A DNA stretch of 64,000 nucleotides from Candidatus Yonathbacteria bacterium RIFCSPLOWO2_01_FULL_43_27 (GTDB lineage: Bacteria; Patescibacteriota; Minisyncoccia; Phycocordibacterales; UBA1550), in assembly GCA_001823545.1 (NCBI GenBank), contig MHUV01000005.1, positions 15,910-79,909 on the forward strand, in the 5' to 3' direction. The notes beneath the pieces were generated by a model. That model had not been told where the DNA came from. It saw only the letters and a list, made by a program, of their open reading frames with translations, and did not search any database. Within the stretch, counting starts at the first letter, position 1. Each line of letters opens with the position of its first letter. This document shows positions 1,763-60,038 of this stretch, piece after piece. Position numbers and translations under genes: made by a program.

Positions 1763-4531
1763 CTAGTCAATATTCAATTTTTGCATTCGTTTTTTAAGTG
1801 CATCTCCGCCCCCCTCAAGAATACTCACAATATCATCTCTAATCTGTTTATATTCAATTCCACCGTTGTGATATTTGAGATTATTGTTTTCATTTTCCGC
1901 AACTATCACATTCTCAGAGTCGGTTAGTAGTAAAAGATTAGGACTATGGGTCGCCACTATCACTTGACGTCTTTCTTTCTGGTCTAATACAAGCTTTCTT
2001 AGGTCATTTGAAATTCCGGAGACATCGATATCATTTTCTGGCTGATCAATAATTATCGGATATACACTTTTTGACAGATTGAATATGAGATCCAAAAGTG
2101 CCATCGCTTTCTGTCCACCAGTCATATTTTCAAAATCTATCAATTCCTCGCCATTCTTATATTTAACAGATTTTGTGAAATCAATATCATACCTACAGCT
2201 CAACAATGTCAGCAATGCACTCTCCTTATCACCACCTGTGACCTTCAATTTTGCAGTAGATGCATCAATGACAATATCTTTAATAATTTGAACTATTTCA
2301 GATTTATCAAAATCCCTTTTTTCATCAAAAAACTTTTTGAAACGGTCCCCAGATCGTCCATCAATATACACATCAAAAAACCTACTCTTATATTCATCTA
2401 CACTGTAACTCACTGTAAAATGGAATGTTATGAAAGTAAAATTATCAAATGCATCTTTGAGAGTTTGAACTATTCCCTCAATTTTGCTCTTAAAAGATAG
2501 GTACAAATCGGCTACTTCGTCAATTACTACTTCTTCTTTTTGACCAAATTCTTTGACAAATTTATCCAGTTTTTCTATCTCTTTTTTCTCGGCACTAAGC
2601 TTGTTTATTTCCTTTAGTATTTTTTCAATGGTTTTATTTTGCTGTAATTTCTCTGTTATTGGAACTAACTCTTTTTCGACAGTAATTTTTCTATCTTTTT
2701 TATTTTTAGTCTTTGACGCCAAGTCATTTAGCAACTCACTTAAATACTCTTTGATTTCTTGACCAGAAAGTTTTTCAATATGCTTTTCAATTAACTCTAA
2801 GGTTATCTGAGATAATCCAAAGAACACTTCACTGTCAACTGTGATGAAATTTACATCACTACCGCTATTGATGTTCTTTATAATCTGGAAATCTTGCTCC
2901 AATAACTTAATTTCTTTGATAAGTGATTCTATTTCCGAAAAATATTTTGTTTGATTTTCAATATCCGCGTCGGTTATATCAATCTTTCCAATCTTATTAA
3001 TTTCTTCTTGTTTAATTTTTATTGCACTGTCTTTATCTTCAGATTTCCCAAGTGGTTTTAGCTGGCTAGTTGTATCTACAATCTGCCTATGTGTACTTAG
3101 TGCTTCTTTAACTTTTGCATTAATTTTTAGTTCTATCGAATCTACAGCATCAGTCTTGCTTGTATCGGCGTTTTTGAATAAATCATTATTGAACAACCGC
3201 GCCTTGAGCATTTCGTCTCGTTTATCATAGTCTCTACCATCTTCATAAGTGATAGTCGATAGATAGTTTTGTGGTATGAATTCAACAAATTTATTCTCAG
3301 AGGTATCGTCGTACCAATGAATTTTAAAATCTTGTAACTTAAATATCTTTTTAACGTCAGGTTGTTCTTGCTCGCCGAGCACATTAAAAGCAATATGTTT
3401 GAGTAAAACAGATTTTCCGGCACCCCGTTTACCAATAACAGAATTTATATCCTTGTTAAAATAAATTGTGTGAATTTTACTGTTTTGCTTATATTCCACT
3501 CTGTCGATAAAAAGTTCTGGAGATGAATTTTTGTTTTCTGAGGGGTTTCTTTCTTGTATTAAAACTCTGTTTGCATAATCTACAACTACTTGTCTTAGTG
3601 TCTCAAAAGTAGTATCTCCCTTAATCCATGTAAAACAATGCCCTAAATCTTTAGGATTGGTATTAAAAAAATCAAATTTTACAACACCCTCATCTCCTGT
3701 TTGTTTAATAGTATGTGCATCACTGCAATGTAATAAACGACTATTTGCTGATTGAGTGTTTAATGAATCTATATTTTTATTTGTTTGCTTTGCACTTGGT
3801 GAAGCAGAAAAAACAATATGAGCATTGTTGATTATGTCCTTTTTGTCTACAGGAGACCCTGTCCACCTAAAATCTTCCCATTCTGATTTTCCAATAGCTT
3901 TTATATATTTACCTCTTAGATATGTGTTTGGTTCCTTTATCTCACCTAGACATTCTTTGAGTTTATCGAGACTGTAGCTTAAATTATTAAAGCCTATTTC
4001 AAAGTGATTATCGCTCTCTCTTTTATCTTCTGGAGTAGTGTCATATACATGTTTACCAAGATCAATTAAACTTTCTCTTGTAACAACTCCGCCCCAAGTG
4101 GTGCTACCCACATTATTCACATCAAGGTTGCATGATGATCTAAAACAATTTAAAAACTGTGCTTCTATTGTTTCAATATCAAGAATGCTCTGTTCCGCAA
4201 AGATAACATGGTAGTTAATTTTTTTTAATTGCTCATTACCCACAAACTCCTTTAATCTAAATTCTACAACAGGCAAAATTAAATCTATATTTTTCAGTCT
4301 GTTCACATTTTTATATTCTATTACTTTTTTGTAACCATCCAGAAACAGATAATCGTTAATACCTATAACTTTTATATCTTTGGGCAAACTTTCTAATCCA
4401 TTAATGAAATTCTCCCATTTTTTTTCTTCTGTCGCACCGGGATACTCCGATGTATGAGAAAACGGCGTGTGAACATGCAAATCCCACTTTCTCCATTCAG
4501 ACCCTTTGTTGTATTTTTGATCCTCTTCCAT
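1763..4531 (-). CDS. PHP-domain phosphoesterase fused to Rad50/SbcC-like coiled-coil ABC ATPase (candidate defence nuclease-ATPase)
   Basis: The N-terminus carries the PHP motif WDLHVHTPFSHTS. A Walker A (GKRGAGKS) is followed by a long K/E-rich coiled-coil segment of roughly 300 aa. The C-terminus carries an ABC signature (MTGGQKAMALLDL), Walker B (IIIDQPENDID) and H-loop (VATHSP). The start at Met56 of the ORF lies 4 nt after the stop of the upstream gene. Confidence 0.7.
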   Translation of the reverse strand: MEEDQKYNKGSEWRKWDLHVHTPFSHTSEYPGATEEKKWENFINGLESLPKDIKVIGINDYLFLDGYKKVIEYKNVNRLKNIDLILPVVEFRLKEFVGNEQLKKINYHVIFAEQSILDIETIEAQFLNCFRSSCNLDVNNVGSTTWGGVVTRESLIDLGKHVYDTTPEDKRESDNHFEIGFNNLSYSLDKLKECLGEIKEPNTYLRGKYIKAIGKSEWEDFRWTGSPVDKKDIINNAHIVFSASPSAKQTNKNIDSLNTQSANSRLLHCSDAHTIKQTGDEGVVKFDFFNTNPKDLGHCFTWIKGDTTFETLRQVVVDYANRVLIQERNPSENKNSSPELFIDRVEYKQNSKIHTIYFNKDINSVIGKRGAGKSVLLKHIAFNVLGEQEQPDVKKIFKLQDFKIHWYDDTSENKFVEFIPQNYLSTITYEDGRDYDKRDEMLKARLFNNDLFKNADTSKTDAVDSIELKINAKVKEALSTHRQIVDTTSQLKPLGKSEDKDSAIKIKQEEINKIGKIDITDADIENQTKYFSEIESLIKEIKLLEQDFQIIKNINSGSDVNFITVDSEVFFGLSQITLELIEKHIEKLSGQEIKEYLSELLNDLASKTKNKKDRKITVEKELVPITEKLQQNKTIEKILKEINKLSAEKKEIEKLDKFVKEFGQKEEVVIDEVADLYLSFKSKIEGIVQTLKDAFDNFTFITFHFTVSYSVDEYKSRFFDVYIDGRSGDRFKKFFDEKRDFDKSEIVQIIKDIVIDASTAKLKVTGGDKESALLTLLSCRYDIDFTKSVKYKNGEELIDFENMTGGQKAMALLDLIFNLSKSVYPIIIDQPENDIDVSGISNDLRKLVLDQKERRQVIVATHSPNLLLLTDSENVIVAENENNNLKYHNGGIEYKQIRDDIVSILEGGGDALKKRMQKLNID

Positions 4532-4535
4532 AATT

Positions 4536-5618
4536 CTATTTTCCAGACTTAGTTCTGTTGTCTTGCTTGCACAACATTTTGCAGTTTGTCGCGATTGTTT
4601 TCCCTCCCTCATGCCAAGGCTTAATATGATCCGCTTCCATTTCCTCGATCTCAAAGCGCTTTTTACACTTAGAGCAAATGCCTTTCTGTCTCTCATATGC
4701 CTCGCGCTTCATTTTGTCATTAAAGGCGCGGATATTTAACGCTCTTTCACTCCCAGTCAAAACATATTCGTAGATGCCAGACTTTTTAGTTACATCCTCA
4801 TCTTGCATCAGCTTTGTTATTTCTTTTTCCAATTTCTTAGCATCAAATTCTTTACCTTTTACTTTGTTGTATAAAGTTCCAAAAGGCACGCCTTTCATTT
4901 CCTTGCGATAGTTAGGAAAAACCGCCTTGACCCAATTTATTACACTCTGAAAATAAAGCCATAATTCGTTGGCGTTAGGTTTGTGCTGATGGTCTGCCAT
5001 GTATTGTTCAATTTTTCCATCGCTTATCCAATCTATTGTAGTTTCTAGGTAGTCTTGGCGGATTGCTGAACCATTTAAATAATCACTTCCAATGTTATAA
5101 GCGGGACAGCCAGTTTTACTAAAGTGTCTTTTTGCATCAGTTAGCCAAGTGCCAGTATAAATAGCATTTCTCAATTCTTGATCTGTTAATTTTTCCCCAG
5201 CAATGTTTATCGTCTTAAACCAATCCAATTTTTCTTTATCATTTCCTTCGCAGAAGTAAATCATCAGCTTGTAATTAAGAATCTGCTCTTTTTCGGTTTC
5301 TTCAAGATTGTGAAAATATTGGAAATTTAAGGAGAATTTACCCGCTATATATTCGCAAATACTTATAGTTCTTTGCTGTCCATCCATCACTTCATAAGTT
5401 CCATCTTCACTTTCAACCCAATACATTACATTCAAAGGAAAATTCTTTCTGACAGTTTCGATGACGGCATCTCTTTGATGATCCTTATAAACGAATTCTC
5501 TTTGATATTTAGGGCGGATATTTAATTTTCCACCATACCCAACAACACCTTCCTCGTTGTCATTAACATATTTATTTGAAACTTCTTTAATTGTGATTTC
5601 TTTTAGTTTAATTTTCAT
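4536..5618 (-). CDS. DUF262 (ParB/GmrS-like NTPase, DGQQR motif) fused to C-terminal HNH endonuclease
   Basis: The DUF262 signature DGQQR is present as VMDGQQRTISICEY. The C-terminal HNH motif reads EADHIKPWHEGGKTIATNCKMLCKQDNRTK. The probable start MKIKLKEITIK has an AGGA upstream. Confidence 0.75.
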   Translation of the reverse strand: MKIKLKEITIKEVSNKYVNDNEEGVVGYGGKLNIRPKYQREFVYKDHQRDAVIETVRKNFPLNVMYWVESEDGTYEVMDGQQRTISICEYIAGKFSLNFQYFHNLEETEKEQILNYKLMIYFCEGNDKEKLDWFKTINIAGEKLTDQELRNAIYTGTWLTDAKRHFSKTGCPAYNIGSDYLNGSAIRQDYLETTIDWISDGKIEQYMADHQHKPNANELWLYFQSVINWVKAVFPNYRKEMKGVPFGTLYNKVKGKEFDAKKLEKEITKLMQDEDVTKKSGIYEYVLTGSERALNIRAFNDKMKREAYERQKGICSKCKKRFEIEEMEADHIKPWHEGGKTIATNCKMLCKQDNRTKSGK

Positions 5619-5622
5619 AAAT

Positions 5623-6723
5623 TTATATTTTCCTATTTCTAATAATGACTCGAGCATAAATGCTTGAATATAGTTCTCCTGTTTCAGTATCCTTAAACGC
5701 AGGCGTTTTATCTGTTAGTGGATTGTATAAACGATATAATGTGCCTTTTGCGTTAAACGTATATTTTCCAGTAGGTGCCCCACTTTTGTCCAAAATCTCC
5801 ATTTTTTTATTAGAAGCAAAATCAATTGATCCAATTATTCCTAAAGCAACTAATTCAAATTGATCAGGACTGTACTTGTCCAAAAAAGTAATAGGAACAC
5901 CAATAGCACCCTTATAATCCACAGGAATATCTTTTGTTACATCAACATTTATAGCATCATAATTTTTATATTTGGGATATTCATTTTCATGTCCGTGATA
6001 CTCTTTATAAAGTATCAAGTCGTCGTGGCGTTCTTTATAATCCAAATTTGTAAACCAACGAACACCCTTAACTCGAATAAATTTATTTCCATTTTCATCA
6101 ATTCTATTTCCAGCAGAATTCAGAGGGTAAGATTCTGGAACTCTAAATTCCCTATCCCCGCTATGTATGCTTTGACCAAGCCAAATTTTGTTCTCCTTGA
6201 TCAATTTGAAAGTTTCTTTATAAGTTATAGCGTTCAAATTGCCGATAATAATAAATTTCTTTTTGTATTCAAATAATTGAGCTAGATATTCTCTAAATAA
6301 TGAAAAAGGTGGATTCGTAACAACAATGTCCGCTTCTTTTAGAATTTCAACACACTCGGGACTTCTAAAATCACCATCCTGTTTTAGTGGGGTTTTGATT
6401 GTATCTAATTTATTTATTTTTCCATCTTTATTTGTGTCTTTTACAATTTCCAATTTATAAGGCGATTCTTTTGTAAGCAAATTTGCATCTTTGTAATGAG
6501 TAGAGATGAGCTTCTTTAGTCCAAGGAATTCAAAATTTAAAGCAAAGTAATTCCAAAAATTGCTTTCTTCTGGGTCATCGCAATTACAAAATATGACTTT
6601 ATTTTTTAAGTGATCTTTATAATTTTTTAATTCTTTTTCAATATCAGACAACTGTGTATAAAACTCGTCGCTTTTTGCTCGGTTTGCCGTCTTTAAGTTT
6701 GCATTTGAGGATTTCTTTTTCAT
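5623..6723 (-). CDS. N6-adenine DNA methyltransferase (NPPF catalytic motif; EcoRI-methylase-like N-terminal DEFYT motif)
   Basis: The catalytic tetrapeptide NPPF appears as VVTNPPFS, with KSDEFYTQL near the N-terminus. It is the first gene of the minus-strand operon, downstream of an AT-rich promoter region. Confidence 0.65.
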   Translation of the reverse strand: MKKKSSNANLKTANRAKSDEFYTQLSDIEKELKNYKDHLKNKVIFCNCDDPEESNFWNYFALNFEFLGLKKLISTHYKDANLLTKESPYKLEIVKDTNKDGKINKLDTIKTPLKQDGDFRSPECVEILKEADIVVTNPPFSLFREYLAQLFEYKKKFIIIGNLNAITYKETFKLIKENKIWLGQSIHSGDREFRVPESYPLNSAGNRIDENGNKFIRVKGVRWFTNLDYKERHDDLILYKEYHGHENEYPKYKNYDAINVDVTKDIPVDYKGAIGVPITFLDKYSPDQFELVALGIIGSIDFASNKKMEILDKSGAPTGKYTFNAKGTLYRLYNPLTDKTPAFKDTETGELYSSIYARVIIRNRKI

Positions 6724-7887: not shown

Positions 7888-7959
7888 TGACCCTACGGGG
7901 AATCGAACCCCGGTTTAAAGCTTGAAAAGCTTCTGTCCTAACCGTTAGACGATAGGGCC
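7888..7959 (-). tRNA. trnE: tRNA-Glu (anticodon UUC)
   Basis: The cloverleaf has acceptor GGCCCTA/TAGGGTC, anticodon stem GAAGC/GCTTT, loop TTTTCAA, T-arm CGGGG-TTCGATT-CCCCG and discriminator A. CCA is not encoded. Confidence 0.8.
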
Positions 7960-21877: not shown

Positions 21878-21912
21878 AAAGAGGCCGCACATGTGCGGCC
21901 TCTTTTCTTTTT
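21878..21912. terminator. Bidirectional rho-independent terminator
   Basis: AAAGAGGCCGCACATGTGCGGCCTCTTT palindrome plus a T-run. Confidence 0.75.
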
Positions 21913-39504: not shown

Positions 39505-39531
39505 GATGTTTTTTGATATAGCGTAGACAAC

Positions 39532-39570
39532 AAAAAGACCGACCTTTTCAGAAAAGGTCGGTCTTTTTGT
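39532..39570. terminator. Bidirectional rho-independent terminator
   Basis: AGACCGACCTTTT-cag-AAAAGGTCGGTCT plus TTTTT. Confidence 0.75.
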
Positions 39571-39587
39571 TGTCTGAATATCAGAAA

Positions 39588-55600: not shown

Positions 55601-55912
55601 CTATATCGCTAAATCGTCGATTGCCTCATCAACAGTCTTTACTGCACTTGAGCGCTTACCACCCTCGGGTTCATTAATCTTCAAATTCACGCGTGCGTTA
55701 TTCTTCATACCTACCGTACGAAGGAGTGTACGGATTGCCTTCGCGGTATTGCCGTCACGACCAATGATTTTACCCATATCACTTGGATTTACCTCAAGCG
55801 TAATAAGGACGCCCATTTCATCGACAATGCGATCTACGTGCACATCACTTGGATTATCTACGAGAGCTTTTACTACATATTCTAAAAATACTACATCTGG
55901 TTCTTGTGTCAT
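55601..55912 (-). CDS. KH-domain RNA-binding protein (YlqC/UPF0109 family)
   Basis: KH motif IIGRDGNTAKAIR. Confidence 0.75.
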   Translation of the reverse strand: MTQEPDVVFLEYVVKALVDNPSDVHVDRIVDEMGVLITLEVNPSDMGKIIGRDGNTAKAIRTLLRTVGMKNNARVNLKINEPEGGKRSSAVKTVDEAIDDLAI

Positions 55913-55957
55913 GGTTTTACAATCTTTAACTGGTAATGTATTTTCAATACGATTGCT

Positions 55958-56146
55958 TAGAGCTTGTTTAGAATCTAATGGCTGACCAAAATAACAAAAT
56001 TTCGAGCGAAAAACGAACTGGAGCTCAAGCCGTATCGAGATACGGTTTGAGCGAAGTGAAGTTTTGCAGCCGAGATTTTGTTGTTTTGGTAGCCAAGTAT
56101 GGTTTCCAAGGTTTATTTCACGATTAGATTCTAAACAGGCTCTTAC
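55958..56146. ncRNA. Candidate structured RNA: ~190-nt long imperfect hairpin with central bubble and terminal stem-loop (6S-RNA-like), or a MITE-like inverted repeat
   Basis: Outer 21-bp inverted repeats AGAGCTTGTTTAGAATCTAAT / ATTAGATTCTAAACAGGCTCT. An inner imperfect stem pairs GGCTGACCAAAATAACAAAAT with ATTTTGTTGTTTTGGTAGCC. Two ~22-nt unpaired arms enclose a terminal hairpin GCTCAAGCCGTATC-GAG-ATACGGTTTGAGC. Confidence 0.35.
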
Positions 56147-56215
56147 ATATTATACTACATATCGCCCCAGAAAACGCAACATATGATTAATCTTACGAGG
56201 TAGTATTCTTCTAAT

Positions 56216-56267
56216 TTCTAGTATCGACGTATAATATACTATAGTATATTATACGTCGATACTAGAA
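56216..56267. repeat. Perfect 52-bp palindrome (26 + 26) with imperfect extension to about 56199..56282
   Basis: TTCTAGTATCGACGTATAATATACTA | TAGTATATTATACGTCGATACTAGAA; the flanks GTAGTATTCTTC / GAAGAAAAAATACTAC extend the symmetry. Confidence 0.9.
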
Positions 56268-56375
56268 GAAAAAATACTACATGAGCTAGTTAAATGTTTA
56301 AATTGATCTGCTCTCTCAGTATGATATACAGATATTCCACAAGGTGGGAATCTGGTTCGCAAAAGTTTTCTTGTG

Positions 56376-57368
56376 CTAGTGTGTCGATGCAGAGGCGATA
56401 CACGCATTGAACGCCTGCACCTCGGCGTTATATTGCGCGATTAAAATTCTCGTTGCCTCGACGAGCGCATTATATATTGGCACGAGCGCATTATACTCCC
56501 CCACAACCACATTATATGAAGGGTTGTAGGGTGGTGTTGATTCAAGGAGTGCCTTCTTTATATCAAGTTCGTTCTTCAAAAAAGCTATTTGACTATTATT
56601 GTTATCAATAGTGGTTTTTGTTGCAGTATTAATTGTCGGGCACGATGATAAAGGTTTACCAAAACTCTGCACGGCGAGCCACGTCTCTCGCCCTTCATAC
56701 ATCCCCTTCCCAACGGCGATACCGATTTCTTGATATTGCGCATTGAGGATATTTGCACGATGTCCAGGACTTGCCATCCACGCATCCACCAACTTAGCGT
56801 TATTTTCAAAATTACCCAGTGCAAGATTTTCACCCACTACTACATACGCATACCCTACCGTTTTAGCAAGATCTGAAGGGCCAACTCCTATCGGCGAAAC
56901 ATGCTCGAAGTATTGTCTGGCAAACATATCTGCAAGTTTCAACTGTGCGCTATGTTCCAATGTCGTATTATAGAGAAGTGCGGGGAGAGCACCATTCTGC
57001 GCGCGCGCACTATTTGTATAAGAAAAAACGCCCTCTTTCGTAAGTGTTTGAGGTGAAGCAACCACACTACCTTCCTGAGTAATACGAAGTGGCCCTGGCG
57101 CCACCACTATTGTTTCTGTTTTTGCAGTAGTAACAGCAAGTGCGCCATTCGTTTTTGTGGGAGTATTAATTTTTGTAACGACCGGCGTTGTCTGTGTAGA
57201 TTTTGCTGATACGCTTTTCTGAGCAACGATAGGTGCCGACGTCGTCGCTGTTTTTTGTACAATACCAGGGGTAGTACTACGAGAATTCTCAAAGTAAGAG
57301 TACGACAAAAAACCTATAGCTAAAAATATTACAATCGATAAAAATGTTTTTATGAAATTAGCAAACAT
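56376..57368 (-). CDS. CAP/SCP/PR-1-like domain protein (YkwD family), membrane-anchored
   Basis: An N-terminal TM helix, a Thr-rich linker, and a C-terminal CAP domain (MASPGHRANILNAQYQEIGIAVG). Confidence 0.65.
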   Translation of the reverse strand: MFANFIKTFLSIVIFLAIGFLSYSYFENSRSTTPGIVQKTATTSAPIVAQKSVSAKSTQTTPVVTKINTPTKTNGALAVTTAKTETIVVAPGPLRITQEGSVVASPQTLTKEGVFSYTNSARAQNGALPALLYNTTLEHSAQLKLADMFARQYFEHVSPIGVGPSDLAKTVGYAYVVVGENLALGNFENNAKLVDAWMASPGHRANILNAQYQEIGIAVGKGMYEGRETWLAVQSFGKPLSSCPTINTATKTTIDNNNSQIAFLKNELDIKKALLESTPPYNPSYNVVVGEYNALVPIYNALVEATRILIAQYNAEVQAFNACIASASTH

Positions 57369-59976: not shown

Positions 59977-60001
59977 TGATAAAAGTTAAGTTCATACAAA
60001 T

Positions 60002-60038
60002 AAAATAACGCATTCATTTTGAATGCGTTATTTTATTA
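60002..60038 (+). terminator. Rho-independent terminator
   Basis: AAAATAACGCATTCA-ttt-TGAATGCGTTATTTT plus a T-run. Confidence 0.7.

What the first reader, a model, noticed from the sequence alone, without database searches (positions are those of the whole stretch)
56199..56282. Perfect 52-bp palindrome, AT-rich core
TTCTAGTATCGACGTATAATATACTA|TAGTATATTATACGTCGATACTAGAA is an exact 26+26 inverted repeat, and the symmetry extends imperfectly to about 84 nt. Perfect palindromes of this length are rare and unstable in bacterial chromosomes. Candidates include a cruciform-forming site for a dimeric DNA-binding protein, a replication or recombination site (dif/ori-like), or a hairpin-forming element of a mobile or phage-derived origin. 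It sits 70 nt from the 6S-like element.
Basis: seen in the sequence. Interest (0 to 1): 0.6.

Follow-up and report, generated by a model that had tools for sequence, protein, structure and literature searches.

The report
Copy of dispersed perfect-palindrome repeat
The 52-bp perfect palindrome is real, but it is not a unique origin- or dif-like site: it is one copy of a family of about 50-bp perfectly symmetric repeats scattered through the intergenic DNA of Yonathbacteria-like (CPR) groundwater bacteria. The family resembles REP elements, I found no description of it, and its copies bracket the gene of a small PaaX-like DNA-binding protein.

Summary
Window 56216-56267 is an exact 26+26 palindrome with no spacer, a weaker extension reaches 56203-56280, and five independent assemblies give the identical sequence.

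GC skew shows no ori/ter switch. Their outer arms are locus-specific yet perfectly complementary (median arm 24 bp, abrupt edges, no G·T pairs). Variant and hybrid copies show that the repeat unit is the half: [outer]-CTATRY-(A/C)CGTAT-NNN-ATACTA.

Copies lie in tandem, convergent and divergent gaps at background proportions, next to unrelated housekeeping genes. The window copy is polymorphic: present in a 95% relative, absent in 99%, 96% and 92% relatives.

Best reading: a REP/REPIN-like head-to-head repeat kept symmetric at DNA level. RAYT-like transposases exist in related genomes but are flanked by other REPs. Window-type palindromes instead flank a 181-aa PaaX-like (winged-helix + Cas2-like) gene in six genomes; a seventh, a paralogue, has a palindrome of a different type.

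The neighbouring "6S-like" element is a MITE-like insertion.

The parts
56216..56267 (.). Perfect 26+26 palindrome with no spacer; the repeat element itself.
   Evidence: Identical in five independent assemblies.
56227..56256 (.). Conserved 30-bp core ACGTATAATATACTATAGTATATTATACGT, with the dyad between 56241 and 56242 and centre CTATAG.
   Evidence: The exact core is found at 79 places, 61 unique contexts, in metagenome contigs.
56229..56239 (.). Mini inverted repeat GTAT-AAT-ATAC inside the left half-unit. Across core variants the stem letters are kept and the middle three letters are free.
   Evidence: Comparison of the variant half-cores AAT, CCT, CCA, TTG, CTC, TTT; read directly from the sequence.
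56244..56254 (.). Mirror copy of the mini inverted repeat (GTAT-ATT-ATAC) in the right half-unit.
   Evidence: read directly from the sequence.
56216..56226 (.). Locus-specific outer arm (TTCTAGTATCG), perfectly complementary to 56257-56267. In other copies this part differs in sequence but stays paired.
56257..56267 (.). Locus-specific outer arm, the partner of 56216-56226.
56203..56215 (.). Imperfect outer extension of the symmetry, containing GTAGTATT with a 3-nt offset relative to the other side.
56268..56280 (.). Imperfect outer extension, the partner side (AATACTAC).

Best explanation
The palindrome is one copy of a dispersed, non-coding family of perfect palindromic repeats in Candidatus Yonathbacteria and related Parcubacteria.

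Each element is best described as a head-to-head, zero-spacer dimer of a half-unit of about 24-26 nt: [0-13 nt locus-specific]-CTATRY-(A/C)CGTAT-NNN-ATACTA. In this it resembles a REP dimer (REPIN).

Shown: the family exists, is multi-copy and is strictly intergenic. It is indifferent to the orientation of the neighbouring genes. It varies in presence between near-identical strains. Its two arms stay exactly complementary even where their sequence differs from copy to copy.

Inferred: the symmetry is kept at DNA level. This could happen through a single-stranded hairpin or cruciform intermediate, or through intrastrand template switching that copies one arm (and some flank) onto the other. It does not appear to come from selection on an RNA hairpin.

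Inferred: the conserved core is recognised by a protein. The best candidate is the 181-aa PaaX-like winged-helix + Cas2-like protein, whose gene these palindromes flank.

Inferred: at this locus the copy sits between the CAP-domain gene and the KH(KhpA)-trmD promoter, with its centre about 100 bp upstream of the inferred start. It is dispensable, because close relatives keep the same promoter without it.
For: Repeat family. 92 of 116 matches have the 8-nt gap, and 79 carry the exact 30-bp core in 61 unique contexts. Single contigs carry several copies: at least 4 on a 279-kb contig and 2 on a 59-kb contig. Several contigs begin or end inside the core (L053, L058, L067, L084, L132, L164), as expected for a repeat.

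Symmetry without sequence conservation. In 54 unique copies, positions 16-21 from the dyad were not forced by the search and vary in sequence, yet 94-100% are paired. Pairing falls to random (0.24) between positions 21 and 29. Arms are 17-35 bp with a median of 24. There is no extension through G·T pairs.

Orthologous copies L009 and L010 differ by a compensated T:A to C:G change.

Other cores and hybrid dimers occur on the same contigs.

Context. Of 45 copies with both neighbours called, 33 are tandem, 6 convergent and 6 divergent, roughly what I would expect for randomly placed intergenic sites. The neighbouring genes are unrelated housekeeping genes.

Polymorphism at this locus. The palindrome is present in the window and in L164 (KH protein 95% identical). 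It is absent in L161 (99%), L162 and L163 (96%) and L007 (92%). The downstream promoter is conserved in all of them.

REP-like setting. Y1/RAYT-like genes are common in Parcubacteria and are flanked by perfect REPs. In L121 a RAYT-like gene is preceded by a 24+24 zero-spacer palindrome of the same architecture, and a window-type copy lies about 340 nt after its stop.

PaaX-like link. The gene is flanked within 7-35 nt by these palindromes in L062, L088, L089, L099, L102 and L131. A 47%-identical paralogue in L091 is followed by a different 27+27 palindrome. The protein matches Pfam PaaX_M at 72 bits, and its best structural match is E. coli PaaX.

The core is 100% identical upstream of this gene in four genomes whose coding DNA is only 62-76% identical.
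Against: No transposase has been tied to this particular core. All seven RAYT-like loci inspected are flanked by other REP sequences.

The GTAG tag that defines classical REPs is absent.

No target-site duplication or clean empty site was found. At the window locus the whole stretch between the CAP stop codon and the -35 box differs between filled and empty alleles.

Exact conservation of 30 bp across species whose genes are 62-84% identical argues for purifying selection, that is a host function, at least as much as for selfish spread.

Copy number per genome was not measured. This window holds one copy in 64 kb.

The PaaX-like gene is not in the window, and I could not check the rest of the source genome.
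Confidence: 0.55

Rival explanations
1. Host cis-regulatory site. The palindromes are operators bound as double-stranded DNA by the PaaX-like winged-helix protein, one dimer on each GTAT-N3-ATAC mini inverted repeat. The protein autoregulates its own gene and acts as a global regulator or boundary factor in front of many promoters, including the KH-trmD promoter here.
For: The gene of the PaaX-like protein has a palindrome ending 7-19 nt before its ATG in six genomes. The protein has a winged-helix + Cas2-like fold and its best structural match is PaaX.

The core is strongly conserved across species.

Many copies lie after a canonical terminator and before an extended -10 promoter, as in L009 and L010 and in the window.

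The 4-3-4 mini inverted repeats have a freely varying spacer.
Against: A double-stranded operator does not explain why non-conserved outer arms and the NNN triplets are exactly complementary between the two halves.

The distance to the downstream start codon varies from about 14 to more than 300 nt without phasing.

Six copies lie between convergent genes.

The neighbouring genes share no function.

The site can be absent in near-identical strains with the same promoter.

Several different cores coexist on one contig, although two paralogues per genome are known.
Confidence: 0.25
2. Transcription-level element. One version is a symmetric promoter cassette, with TATAAT in each arm facing the dyad and TATAGT-like hexamers facing outward. 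The other is an RNA hairpin acting as a terminator, an RNase III site or an mRNA stabiliser.
For: There is a perfect TATAAT in each arm, and a TCGACG-17-TATTAT match (9 of 12) on both strands.

In L088 and L089 the outer TATAGT lies 7-8 nt before the ATG of the PaaX-like gene, the spacing seen at leaderless genes in these genomes.

The RNA would form a 26-bp helix.
Against: The usual promoter in these genomes is TGnTAnAAT; the palindrome lacks the TG and a -35 box.

The -10-like hexamers are not kept in variant cores.

The scan found no terminator signature. T runs lie 5' and A runs 3' of the hairpin, the reverse of an intrinsic terminator, and canonical terminators often already sit next to it.

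Among about 480 variable pairs there are no G·U-type pairs, which is unlike RNA-selected helices.

Orientation classes are at background level.
Confidence: 0.12
3. A unique chromosomal site for replication or recombination: dif/Xer, an origin or terminus, or a telomere-resolvase target.
For: A perfect palindrome with an AT-rich centre superficially resembles protelomerase or recombinase targets (from my own knowledge of N15 telRL and loxP; not tested).
Against: The sequence is multi-copy. GC skew does not switch. It is absent from close relatives with the same gene order. The core has no match in viral contigs. The two flanks are unrelated, so this is not a resolved hairpin end.
Confidence: 0.03
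4. Assembly or library artefact (fold-back or chimeric read).
For: Palindromes do break assemblies: several contigs end inside the core, and L024 has NN at the dyad.
Against: Five independent assemblies give the identical sequence. The family is seen in many projects and with different assemblers. The flanks are unique sequence on both sides.
Confidence: 0.01

Closest known systems
REP / BIME / REPIN elements with RAYT (TnpA-REP) transposases, especially group 3 'perfectly palindromic' REPs (PMC8266576, PMC3116915, PMC2817692)
   Same: Both are short intergenic palindromic repeats present in many copies, with subfamilies and head-to-head dimers that can fold into a long hairpin. Both are variably present between strains, persist at orthologous sites, and include homo- and heterodimers. 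RAYT-like genes flanked by perfect REPs do exist in Parcubacteria.
   Different: There is no GTAG tag. The dimer has zero spacer and is an exact palindrome of about 50 bp. The outermost arms are locus-specific but still perfectly paired. The core is AT-rich. No RAYT gene was found flanked by this core. The flanked gene is instead a PaaX-like winged-helix/Cas2-like protein.
CGTC-tagged REPs, which lack a dedicated transposase (Di Nocera et al. 2013, PMC3733652)
   Same: Both are palindromic repeats, mostly head-to-head dimers, with no associated transposase gene. About half of the copies here, including the window copy, read GACGT...ACGTC at the edge of the core.
   Different: In CGTC REPs the tag is terminal, the stems are 8-9 bp and the loops 4-5 nt. 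Here CGTC is internal and optional, and the element is a 40-58-bp perfect palindrome.
MITEs such as Correia/NEMIS, RUP, and the 191-nt hairpin next door
   Same: Small non-autonomous intergenic elements made largely of inverted repeats.
   Different: MITEs have conserved outer terminal inverted repeats and a direct target-site duplication. Here the inner part is conserved, the outer part varies, and no direct duplication is seen.
PaaX repressor and its operators
   Same: The protein whose gene is flanked by the palindromes shares the winged-helix + Cas2-like two-domain fold of PaaX.
   Different: The protein is 181 aa, lacks the PaaX C-terminal domain and has a hydrophobic N-terminal helix. 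No phenylacetate genes are nearby. Binding has not been shown.
Quasi-palindrome correction by intrastrand template switching (known from E. coli mutagenesis; from my own knowledge, not tested here)
   Same: It would explain perfect arms, compensated changes at orthologous copies, and palindromes that extend by variable lengths into unique flanks with abrupt edges.
   Different: It is a mutational mechanism, not an element family, and here it is only inferred.

Membership tests
REP/REPIN-RAYT system | Short palindromic unit repeated many times in intergenic DNA | tested here: met
   The exact core occurs in 61 unique contexts, with several copies per contig, and all are intergenic. The count per genome was not measured.
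REP/REPIN-RAYT system | Conserved GTAG (or CGTC) tetranucleotide at one end of the unit | tested here: not met
   G makes up only 5-15% of the 5' flanks and outer arms, and there is no conserved GTAG. CGTC is present in about 48% of copies, but internally. The window copy has GTAG 13-16 nt outside each edge, which other copies lack.
REP/REPIN-RAYT system | Units paired head-to-head into a larger hairpin (REPIN/BIME) | tested here: met
   There are perfect homodimers, and also heterodimers of two different half-cores upstream of the PaaX-like gene in L088 and L102.
REP/REPIN-RAYT system | A single-copy RAYT gene flanked by the same repeats (REPtron) | tested here: not met
   Seven RAYT-like loci (L121, L169, L173, L176, L177, L178, L179) are each flanked by other, genome-specific REPs. 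In L121 a window-type copy lies about 340 nt downstream, but it is not the immediate flank.
REP/REPIN-RAYT system | A RAYT is encoded in the genome that carries the repeats | tested here: inconclusive
   One contig (L121) carries both. There is none in the 64-kb window.
MITE | Conserved terminal inverted repeats plus a direct target-site duplication | tested here: not met
   The outer ends are the variable part. The flanks show no direct repeat, and pairing beyond the edge is random.
dif / Xer site or replication origin/terminus | A single site per replicon at a GC-skew switch, conserved in relatives | tested here: not met
   GC skew is uniformly negative. The sequence is multi-copy. It is absent in close relatives.
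Intrinsic (rho-independent) terminator | A G+C-rich stem followed by a T run, located after a gene's 3' end | tested here: not met
   The scan does not call it. The stem is AT-rich, with a T run 5' and an A run 3'. Six copies lie between divergent genes.
Sigma-70-type promoter of this lineage | TGnTAnAAT extended -10, 6-8 nt before a leaderless ATG, or a -35/-10 pair | tested here: inconclusive
   TATAAT is present but without the TG or a good -35 box. The hexamers are not conserved in variant cores. An outward TATAGT fits in L088 and L089 only.
Operator of a PaaX-like regulator | The site is bound by the protein, and lies at the protein's own promoter and at regulon promoters | not testable with these tools
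   Adjacency to the gene is seen in six genomes, and a seventh (a paralogue) carries a palindrome of a different type. Binding and regulation cannot be tested here.
6S RNA (the neighbouring element, not the palindrome) | A match to the Rfam 6S model and a stable single-copy gene in relatives | tested here: not met
   There is no 6S hit at the gathering threshold or at E<=10. The element is absent from L162, L163, L164 and L007 at the same site, with TA/TAAG duplicated in the filled alleles.

The most novel reading that the evidence does not exclude
These palindromes and the 181-aa PaaX-like (winged-helix + Cas2-like) protein form a previously unrecognised repeat-protein system in CPR bacteria. 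It would be laid out like a REPtron, but built around a non-transposase DNA-binding protein.

In this reading the protein recognises cruciform or hairpin DNA through the GTAT-N3-ATAC motifs. An associated DNA-level process keeps each copy an exact palindrome and lets it grow into its flanks.
Probability: 0.25. Interest if true: 0.8.

Novelty: new variant of a known kind. Interest (0 to 1): 0.55.

Why it matters
Long perfect palindromes are normally unstable in bacteria, yet here a whole family of them is kept exact in very small CPR genomes. The 30-bp core is identical across species whose genes have diverged by 16-38% in DNA sequence.

That implies either a dedicated recognition protein or a symmetrising mechanism, or both. 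It also gives a concrete candidate protein to test.

There are practical consequences. The repeats fragment CPR assemblies, since contigs end inside them. They mark strain-level insertion and deletion differences. They also sit next to promoters of core genes such as KH-trmD, yqgF, dut, prfB and glyA.

For this window specifically, the result removes an ori/dif reading and a 6S reading that would otherwise mislead annotation.

Tried and rejected
- **Rfam.** Both at gathering and at E<=10, the only matches are spurious miRNA-hairpin hits on the palindrome, with no 6S.
- **Promoter and terminator scan.** Only weak symmetric 9-of-12 promoter matches, and no terminator.
- **TAGTATAAT as a lineage promoter motif.** Not enriched in the window: 19 matches against 14.6 expected.
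- **Viral contigs.** No copy of the core, and no copy of the end of the neighbouring hairpin.
- **RNA-level selection.** No G·U-compatible extension and no wobble pairs inside the arms.
- **Target-site duplication or an insertion motif at the edges.** None found. The only signal is strong G depletion 5' of the element on both strands, which remains unexplained.
- **Homology of the 197-nt filled allele beyond the palindrome.** None.
- **A regulon.** The neighbouring genes are functionally unrelated.
- **Fixed spacing to promoters.** None.
- **A RAYT flanked by the window-type core.** Seven loci were inspected and none has it.
- **Rfam scan of the conserved roughly 100-nt sequence next to some copies.** Nothing found.
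- **Literature searches** for the sequence, for CPR palindromes, and for PaaX/Cas2-like proteins with palindromes found nothing relevant.
- **Sequence search of the PaaX-like protein against PDB.** No hit. Only the fold search matched PaaX.

Full report
**1. Observation.**

Window 56216-56267 reads TTCTAGTATCGACGTATAATATACTA|TAGTATATTATACGTCGATACTAGAA, an exact 26+26 inverted repeat with no spacer. The 26-mer occurs only there, once per strand, against 0 expected in shuffles. Among all zero-spacer palindromes in the 64 kb the next longest arms are 14 and 8.

A weaker symmetry extends to 56203-56280 (39+39, 85% complementary). Folded as single-stranded DNA, the 86-nt stretch gives -27.1 kcal/mol with z = -11.

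The whole 463-nt intergenic region is 100% identical in five independently assembled contigs from different ENA and JGI samples. The flanks are unique sequence. An assembly artefact is therefore excluded.

**2. Setting.**

All local genes are on the minus strand. In the direction of transcription the order is:
- a CAP-domain protein (56376-57368);
- 108 nt of spacer;
- the palindrome;
- 36 nt of spacer;
- a promoter-like TTGCGT ... TAGTATAAT (56174-56179 and 56149-56157);
- a 191-nt long hairpin (55956-56146);
- KH/KhpA (55601-55912), then trmD, rpsB and tsf.

The organism is a Candidatus Yonathbacteria (Parcubacteria, CPR) from groundwater. GC skew is negative in every 2-kb bin and shows no switch.

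**3. The palindrome is a member of a repeat family.**

Related trmD loci from GTDB genomes hold other perfect zero-spacer palindromes of 46-56 bp, also centred on CTATAG but with different arms. These are in L009, L010, L021 and L024. L009 and L010 carry theirs at the same place as the window, about 100 nt upstream of the KH start codon and just after rpsP and its canonical terminator.

I scanned the metagenome collection for the letters shared by the window and L024, ACGTATAAT AT-N(0-12)-ATATTATACGT written without the space.
- 92 of 116 matches have exactly the window's 8-nt centre.
- 79 carry the full 30-bp core ACGTATAATATACTATAGTATATTATACGT, in 61 distinct contexts.
- Several lie on one contig: at least 4 on a 279-kb contig, 2 on a 59-kb contig, and 2 within 640 bp in L062.
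- Several contigs start or stop inside the core, the usual signature of a repeat in assembly graphs.

The loci that carry the core have 40-51% G+C, like the window at 42%. IMG/VR viral contigs hold no copy.

**4. Anatomy of the family.**

In 54 unique copies with enough flank, the positions outside the searched letters behave as follows.
- Positions 16-21 from the dyad vary in sequence. Position 16 is C 41%, G 48%, T 11%, and the common forms are CTATAC, CTATGT, CTATAG and xxAAAG. They are complementary in 94-100% of copies.
- Pairing then falls to the random level (0.24) between positions 21 and 29.
- Arms are 17-35 bp with a median of 24.
- The 12 nt beyond the first mismatch pair at 0.236, so the edge is abrupt.

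The outermost 0-13 paired letters are different at almost every locus. There are no G·T pairs inside the arms, and allowing wobble pairs on either strand gives no extension. The symmetry is therefore a property of the DNA, or of both strands, and not of one RNA.

A formal count on 59 aligned copies gives 25 of 30 pairs with changes on both sides and a covariation score of 0.44, against 0.13 in shuffles and 0.09-0.11 for slid partners. That alignment was selected for arms of 20 or more, so only its outer columns are unbiased. The unbiased evidence is.

On both strands the 5' flank and outer arm are strongly depleted in G, at 5-15% against 22% overall. I cannot explain this.

**5. The repeat unit is the half.**

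The same contigs carry perfect palindromes with other half-cores:
- CCGTATCCTATACTA
- ACGCATTTGATACTA
- ATGTATCCAATACTA
- TGTATACGGTACTA
- a more distant ..CACGCTA type

There are also hybrids, whose left and right halves are of different types: L088 has ACGTATCTCATACTA | CCGTATAATATACTA, and L102 has ACGCATTTGATACTA | ACGTATAATATACTA.

Across types the letters (A/C)CGTAT and ATACTA are kept, while the three letters between them are free (AAT, CCT, CCA, TTG, CTC, TTT). So each half contains a mini inverted repeat, GTAT-NNN-ATAC. This is what one expects either of a small hairpin with a free loop or of a 4-3-4 binding site for a dimer.

**6. Where copies sit.**

I called genes with a codon-usage model trained on the loci themselves. 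Of the 45 copies with both neighbours called, 33 lie between tandem genes, 6 between convergent and 6 between divergent genes. That is roughly the mix I would expect for random intergenic sites; the expected mix was not measured here.

Distances to gene ends and starts vary widely. A frequent layout is gene, canonical terminator, palindrome, then an extended -10 (TGnTAnAAT) 6-8 nt before a leaderless ATG.

Judged from their N-terminal sequences and without a domain search, the neighbouring genes look unrelated: ileS, grpE, yqgF, dut, prfB, glyA, scpB, recJ, tig, hpf, murJ, corA, uvrD and others. This argues against a specific regulon, a pure promoter or a pure terminator.

**7. Presence and absence at this very locus.**

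I recovered close relatives through KH-protein homologues and aligned them.
- The palindrome is present in the window and in L164 (KH 95% identical; the contig begins inside the palindrome, and the right arm is identical).
- It is absent in L161 (99%), L162 and L163 (96%) and L007 (92%).
- All of them keep the downstream promoter TTGCGTTTTCT...ATGTAGTATAAT.
- In the empty alleles the 20-30 nt between the CAP stop codon and the -35 box hold a short hairpin, GTACA(T/G)AGGGTACCC... It resembles the REP that flanks a RAYT-like gene in L169.

The filled allele differs over about 197 nt, and only the palindrome itself has relatives elsewhere. So there is no clean empty-site junction and no target duplication. 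The copy is thus polymorphic and dispensable.

Orthologous copies in L009 and L010 differ at the outer arm by a compensated T:A to C:G change. This shows that symmetric change happens in place.

**8. Link to transposases.**

A tblastn with remembered IS200 and RAYT sequences led to a 223-aa ORF in L121.
- It passes the Pfam Y1_Tnp cut-off (28.1 bits against 23).
- Its best NCBIfam match is REP-associated tyrosine transposase (E = 2e-10, below that model's cut-off).
- It is preceded by a 24+24 zero-spacer perfect palindrome with a pyrimidine-rich outer arm, CTTCTCCTAAGGTCGGACCTATGT|..., and followed by GGACCTATGT repeats.
- A window-type copy lies about 340 nt after its stop codon.

This protein family is large in Parcubacteria: 1572 proteins at E<=1e-5. 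Six further loci show each gene flanked, and in some cases internally marked, by genome-specific short perfect REPs. None of them carries the window-type core.

So REP/RAYT systems exist in this lineage, and zero-spacer perfect dimers occur in them. A transposase for this particular family was not found.

**9. Link to a PaaX-like protein.**

One gene recurs next to the palindromes. It encodes a 181-aa protein with these properties:
- Pfam PaaX_M, the Cas2-like domain, at 72 bits.
- An NCBIfam PaaX alignment over residues 48-153.
- An AlphaFold model with mean pLDDT 82, whose best PDB match is E. coli PaaX (probability 1.0, E = 9e-4), followed by Rv0674, Cas2 proteins and winged-helix repressors.

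Its gene is flanked as follows.

| Locus | Upstream | Downstream |
|---|---|---|
| L062 | standard core | standard core |
| L099 | standard core | variant core |
| L089 | standard core | degenerate copy |
| L088 | hybrid | perfect variant |
| L102 | hybrid | perfect variant |
| L131 | standard core | none |

The upstream element ends 7-19 nt before the ATG. A 47%-identical paralogue in L091 is followed, 24 nt after its stop codon, by a different 27+27 palindrome.

Four of the roughly 14 palindromes that were not selected by my search lie next to this one gene family. By my rough estimate that is far beyond chance, of the order of 1e-6 given about 8 such genes among roughly 1300.

The coding DNA of these genes is 62-84% identical between genomes, yet the 30-bp core upstream is identical in four of them. 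Homologues are annotated in Yonathbacteria MAGs, sometimes two per genome. Many sit on contigs of only 0.9-2 kb, as expected if repeats bracket the gene.

The window itself does not encode this protein.

**10. Interpretation.**

*Shown:* this is a real, exact palindrome that belongs to a dispersed, intergenic, orientation-neutral, strain-variable family. The arms of each copy are kept exactly complementary at DNA level, and the core is conserved across species.

*Inferred as most likely (0.55):* a REP/REPIN-like head-to-head repeat.
- It would be maintained and extended through a single-stranded hairpin or cruciform state, or through intrastrand template switching.
- Its core would be recognised by a protein, with the PaaX-like protein as the best candidate.
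- The window copy would have no essential local role.

*Main rival (0.25):* the elements are primarily double-stranded operators or boundary sites of that protein. This explains the conservation and the adjacency to the gene. It does not explain the perfect pairing of non-conserved letters, the convergent sites, or the loss in near-identical strains.

*Lesser rivals:* promoter, terminator or RNA readings have little support. The dif/ori/telomere and artefact readings are contradicted.

**11. Comparison with known systems and novelty.**

The nearest described systems are REP/BIME/REPIN-RAYT, particularly group 3 with perfect REPs (PMC8266576), and the CGTC-tagged REPs that lack a transposase (PMC3733652).

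The defining GTAG tag and the RAYT flanked by the same repeat were both tested here and not met. I therefore do not file the family as a member of that system, only as something that works like it.

Full-text searches found no description of the sequence, of CPR palindromic repeats, or of a PaaX/Cas2-like protein bracketed by palindromes. I rate it a new variant of a known kind, of moderate interest (0.55). The interest would be higher if the protein-repeat partnership or a symmetrising mechanism were confirmed.

Noticed in passing
window 55956-56146 (minus strand): The '6S-like' 191-nt long hairpin is an insertion between the KH-trmD promoter and the KH gene. It has 21-nt terminal inverted repeats and TA/TAAG duplicated at both ends. 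It is present in the window and L161 and absent from the same site in L162, L163, L164 and L007. A 72%-identical copy lies at another locus (L156 10543-10664). There is no Rfam 6S match. It looks like a MITE.
   Followed up: partly
window 56149-56179 (minus strand): A promoter-like TTGCGT (56174-56179) and TAGTATAAT (56149-56157) upstream of KH-trmD is conserved in all close relatives, whether or not they carry the palindrome or the hairpin insertion.
   Followed up: partly
window 1763-6723, with a tRNA at 7888-7959: A low-GC stretch (0.32-0.34 against about 0.43) encodes a 977-aa ATPase-like protein, a 373-aa protein with an HNH-like C-terminus, and a 366-aa NPPF-motif DNA methyltransferase-like protein. 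This looks like a defence or restriction island beside a tRNA gene. It was not scanned against domain libraries.
   Followed up: no
window 39525-39575, 21878-21905, 59999-60037: Other perfect inverted repeats (25+1+25, 14+14, 18+3+18). The first and third have an A-rich 5' end and a T-rich 3' end, like bidirectional intrinsic terminators; the second was not examined. They are a different class from the finding.
   Followed up: partly
L161 2215-2245, L162 and L163 at the same site: Strains that lack the palindrome carry at that spot a short hairpin, GTACA(T/G)AGGGTACCC.., resembling the REP (TGTACGAGGGTACCCCTCGTACA) that flanks a RAYT-like gene in L169. This intergenic gap seems to be a landing place for different repeat families.
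   Followed up: partly
L095 2150-2265 and 3837-3920; L105 1100-1219; L121 3700-3807; L127: A conserved non-coding sequence of about 70-100 nt (..GGRAAWTCATGCAARAAYTT..CCACTGGCAARAAAYTCTTA..) abuts window-type palindromes in several genomes. In L095 two inverted copies bracket a toxin-antitoxin module. No Rfam match.
   Followed up: partly
L173 1655-1679, L176 1656-1678, L177 10212-10236: RAYT-like genes of Parcubacteria contain a copy of their own flanking REP inside the coding region, at a conserved position. In L173 that stretch reads ..IQRLPLDK..
   Followed up: no
many loci, e.g. L079 1480-1520, L137, L128, L091: Genes in these genomes often have an extended -10 (TGnTAnAAT) only 6-8 nt before the ATG. 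This suggests widespread leaderless mRNAs in this CPR lineage.
   Followed up: no
flanks of all window-type copies (12 nt or more on each side): There is strong strand-symmetric G depletion 5' of the element on both strands: G is 5-15% against 22% background. It extends beyond the paired region and is unexplained.
   Followed up: partly
L024 223-270: The GTDB copy of a standard palindrome has NN at its centre and lacks the central ACTATAGT, whereas the same locus in a metagenome contig (L079) has the full core. This is probably an assembly or masking effect at the dyad.
   Followed up: partly
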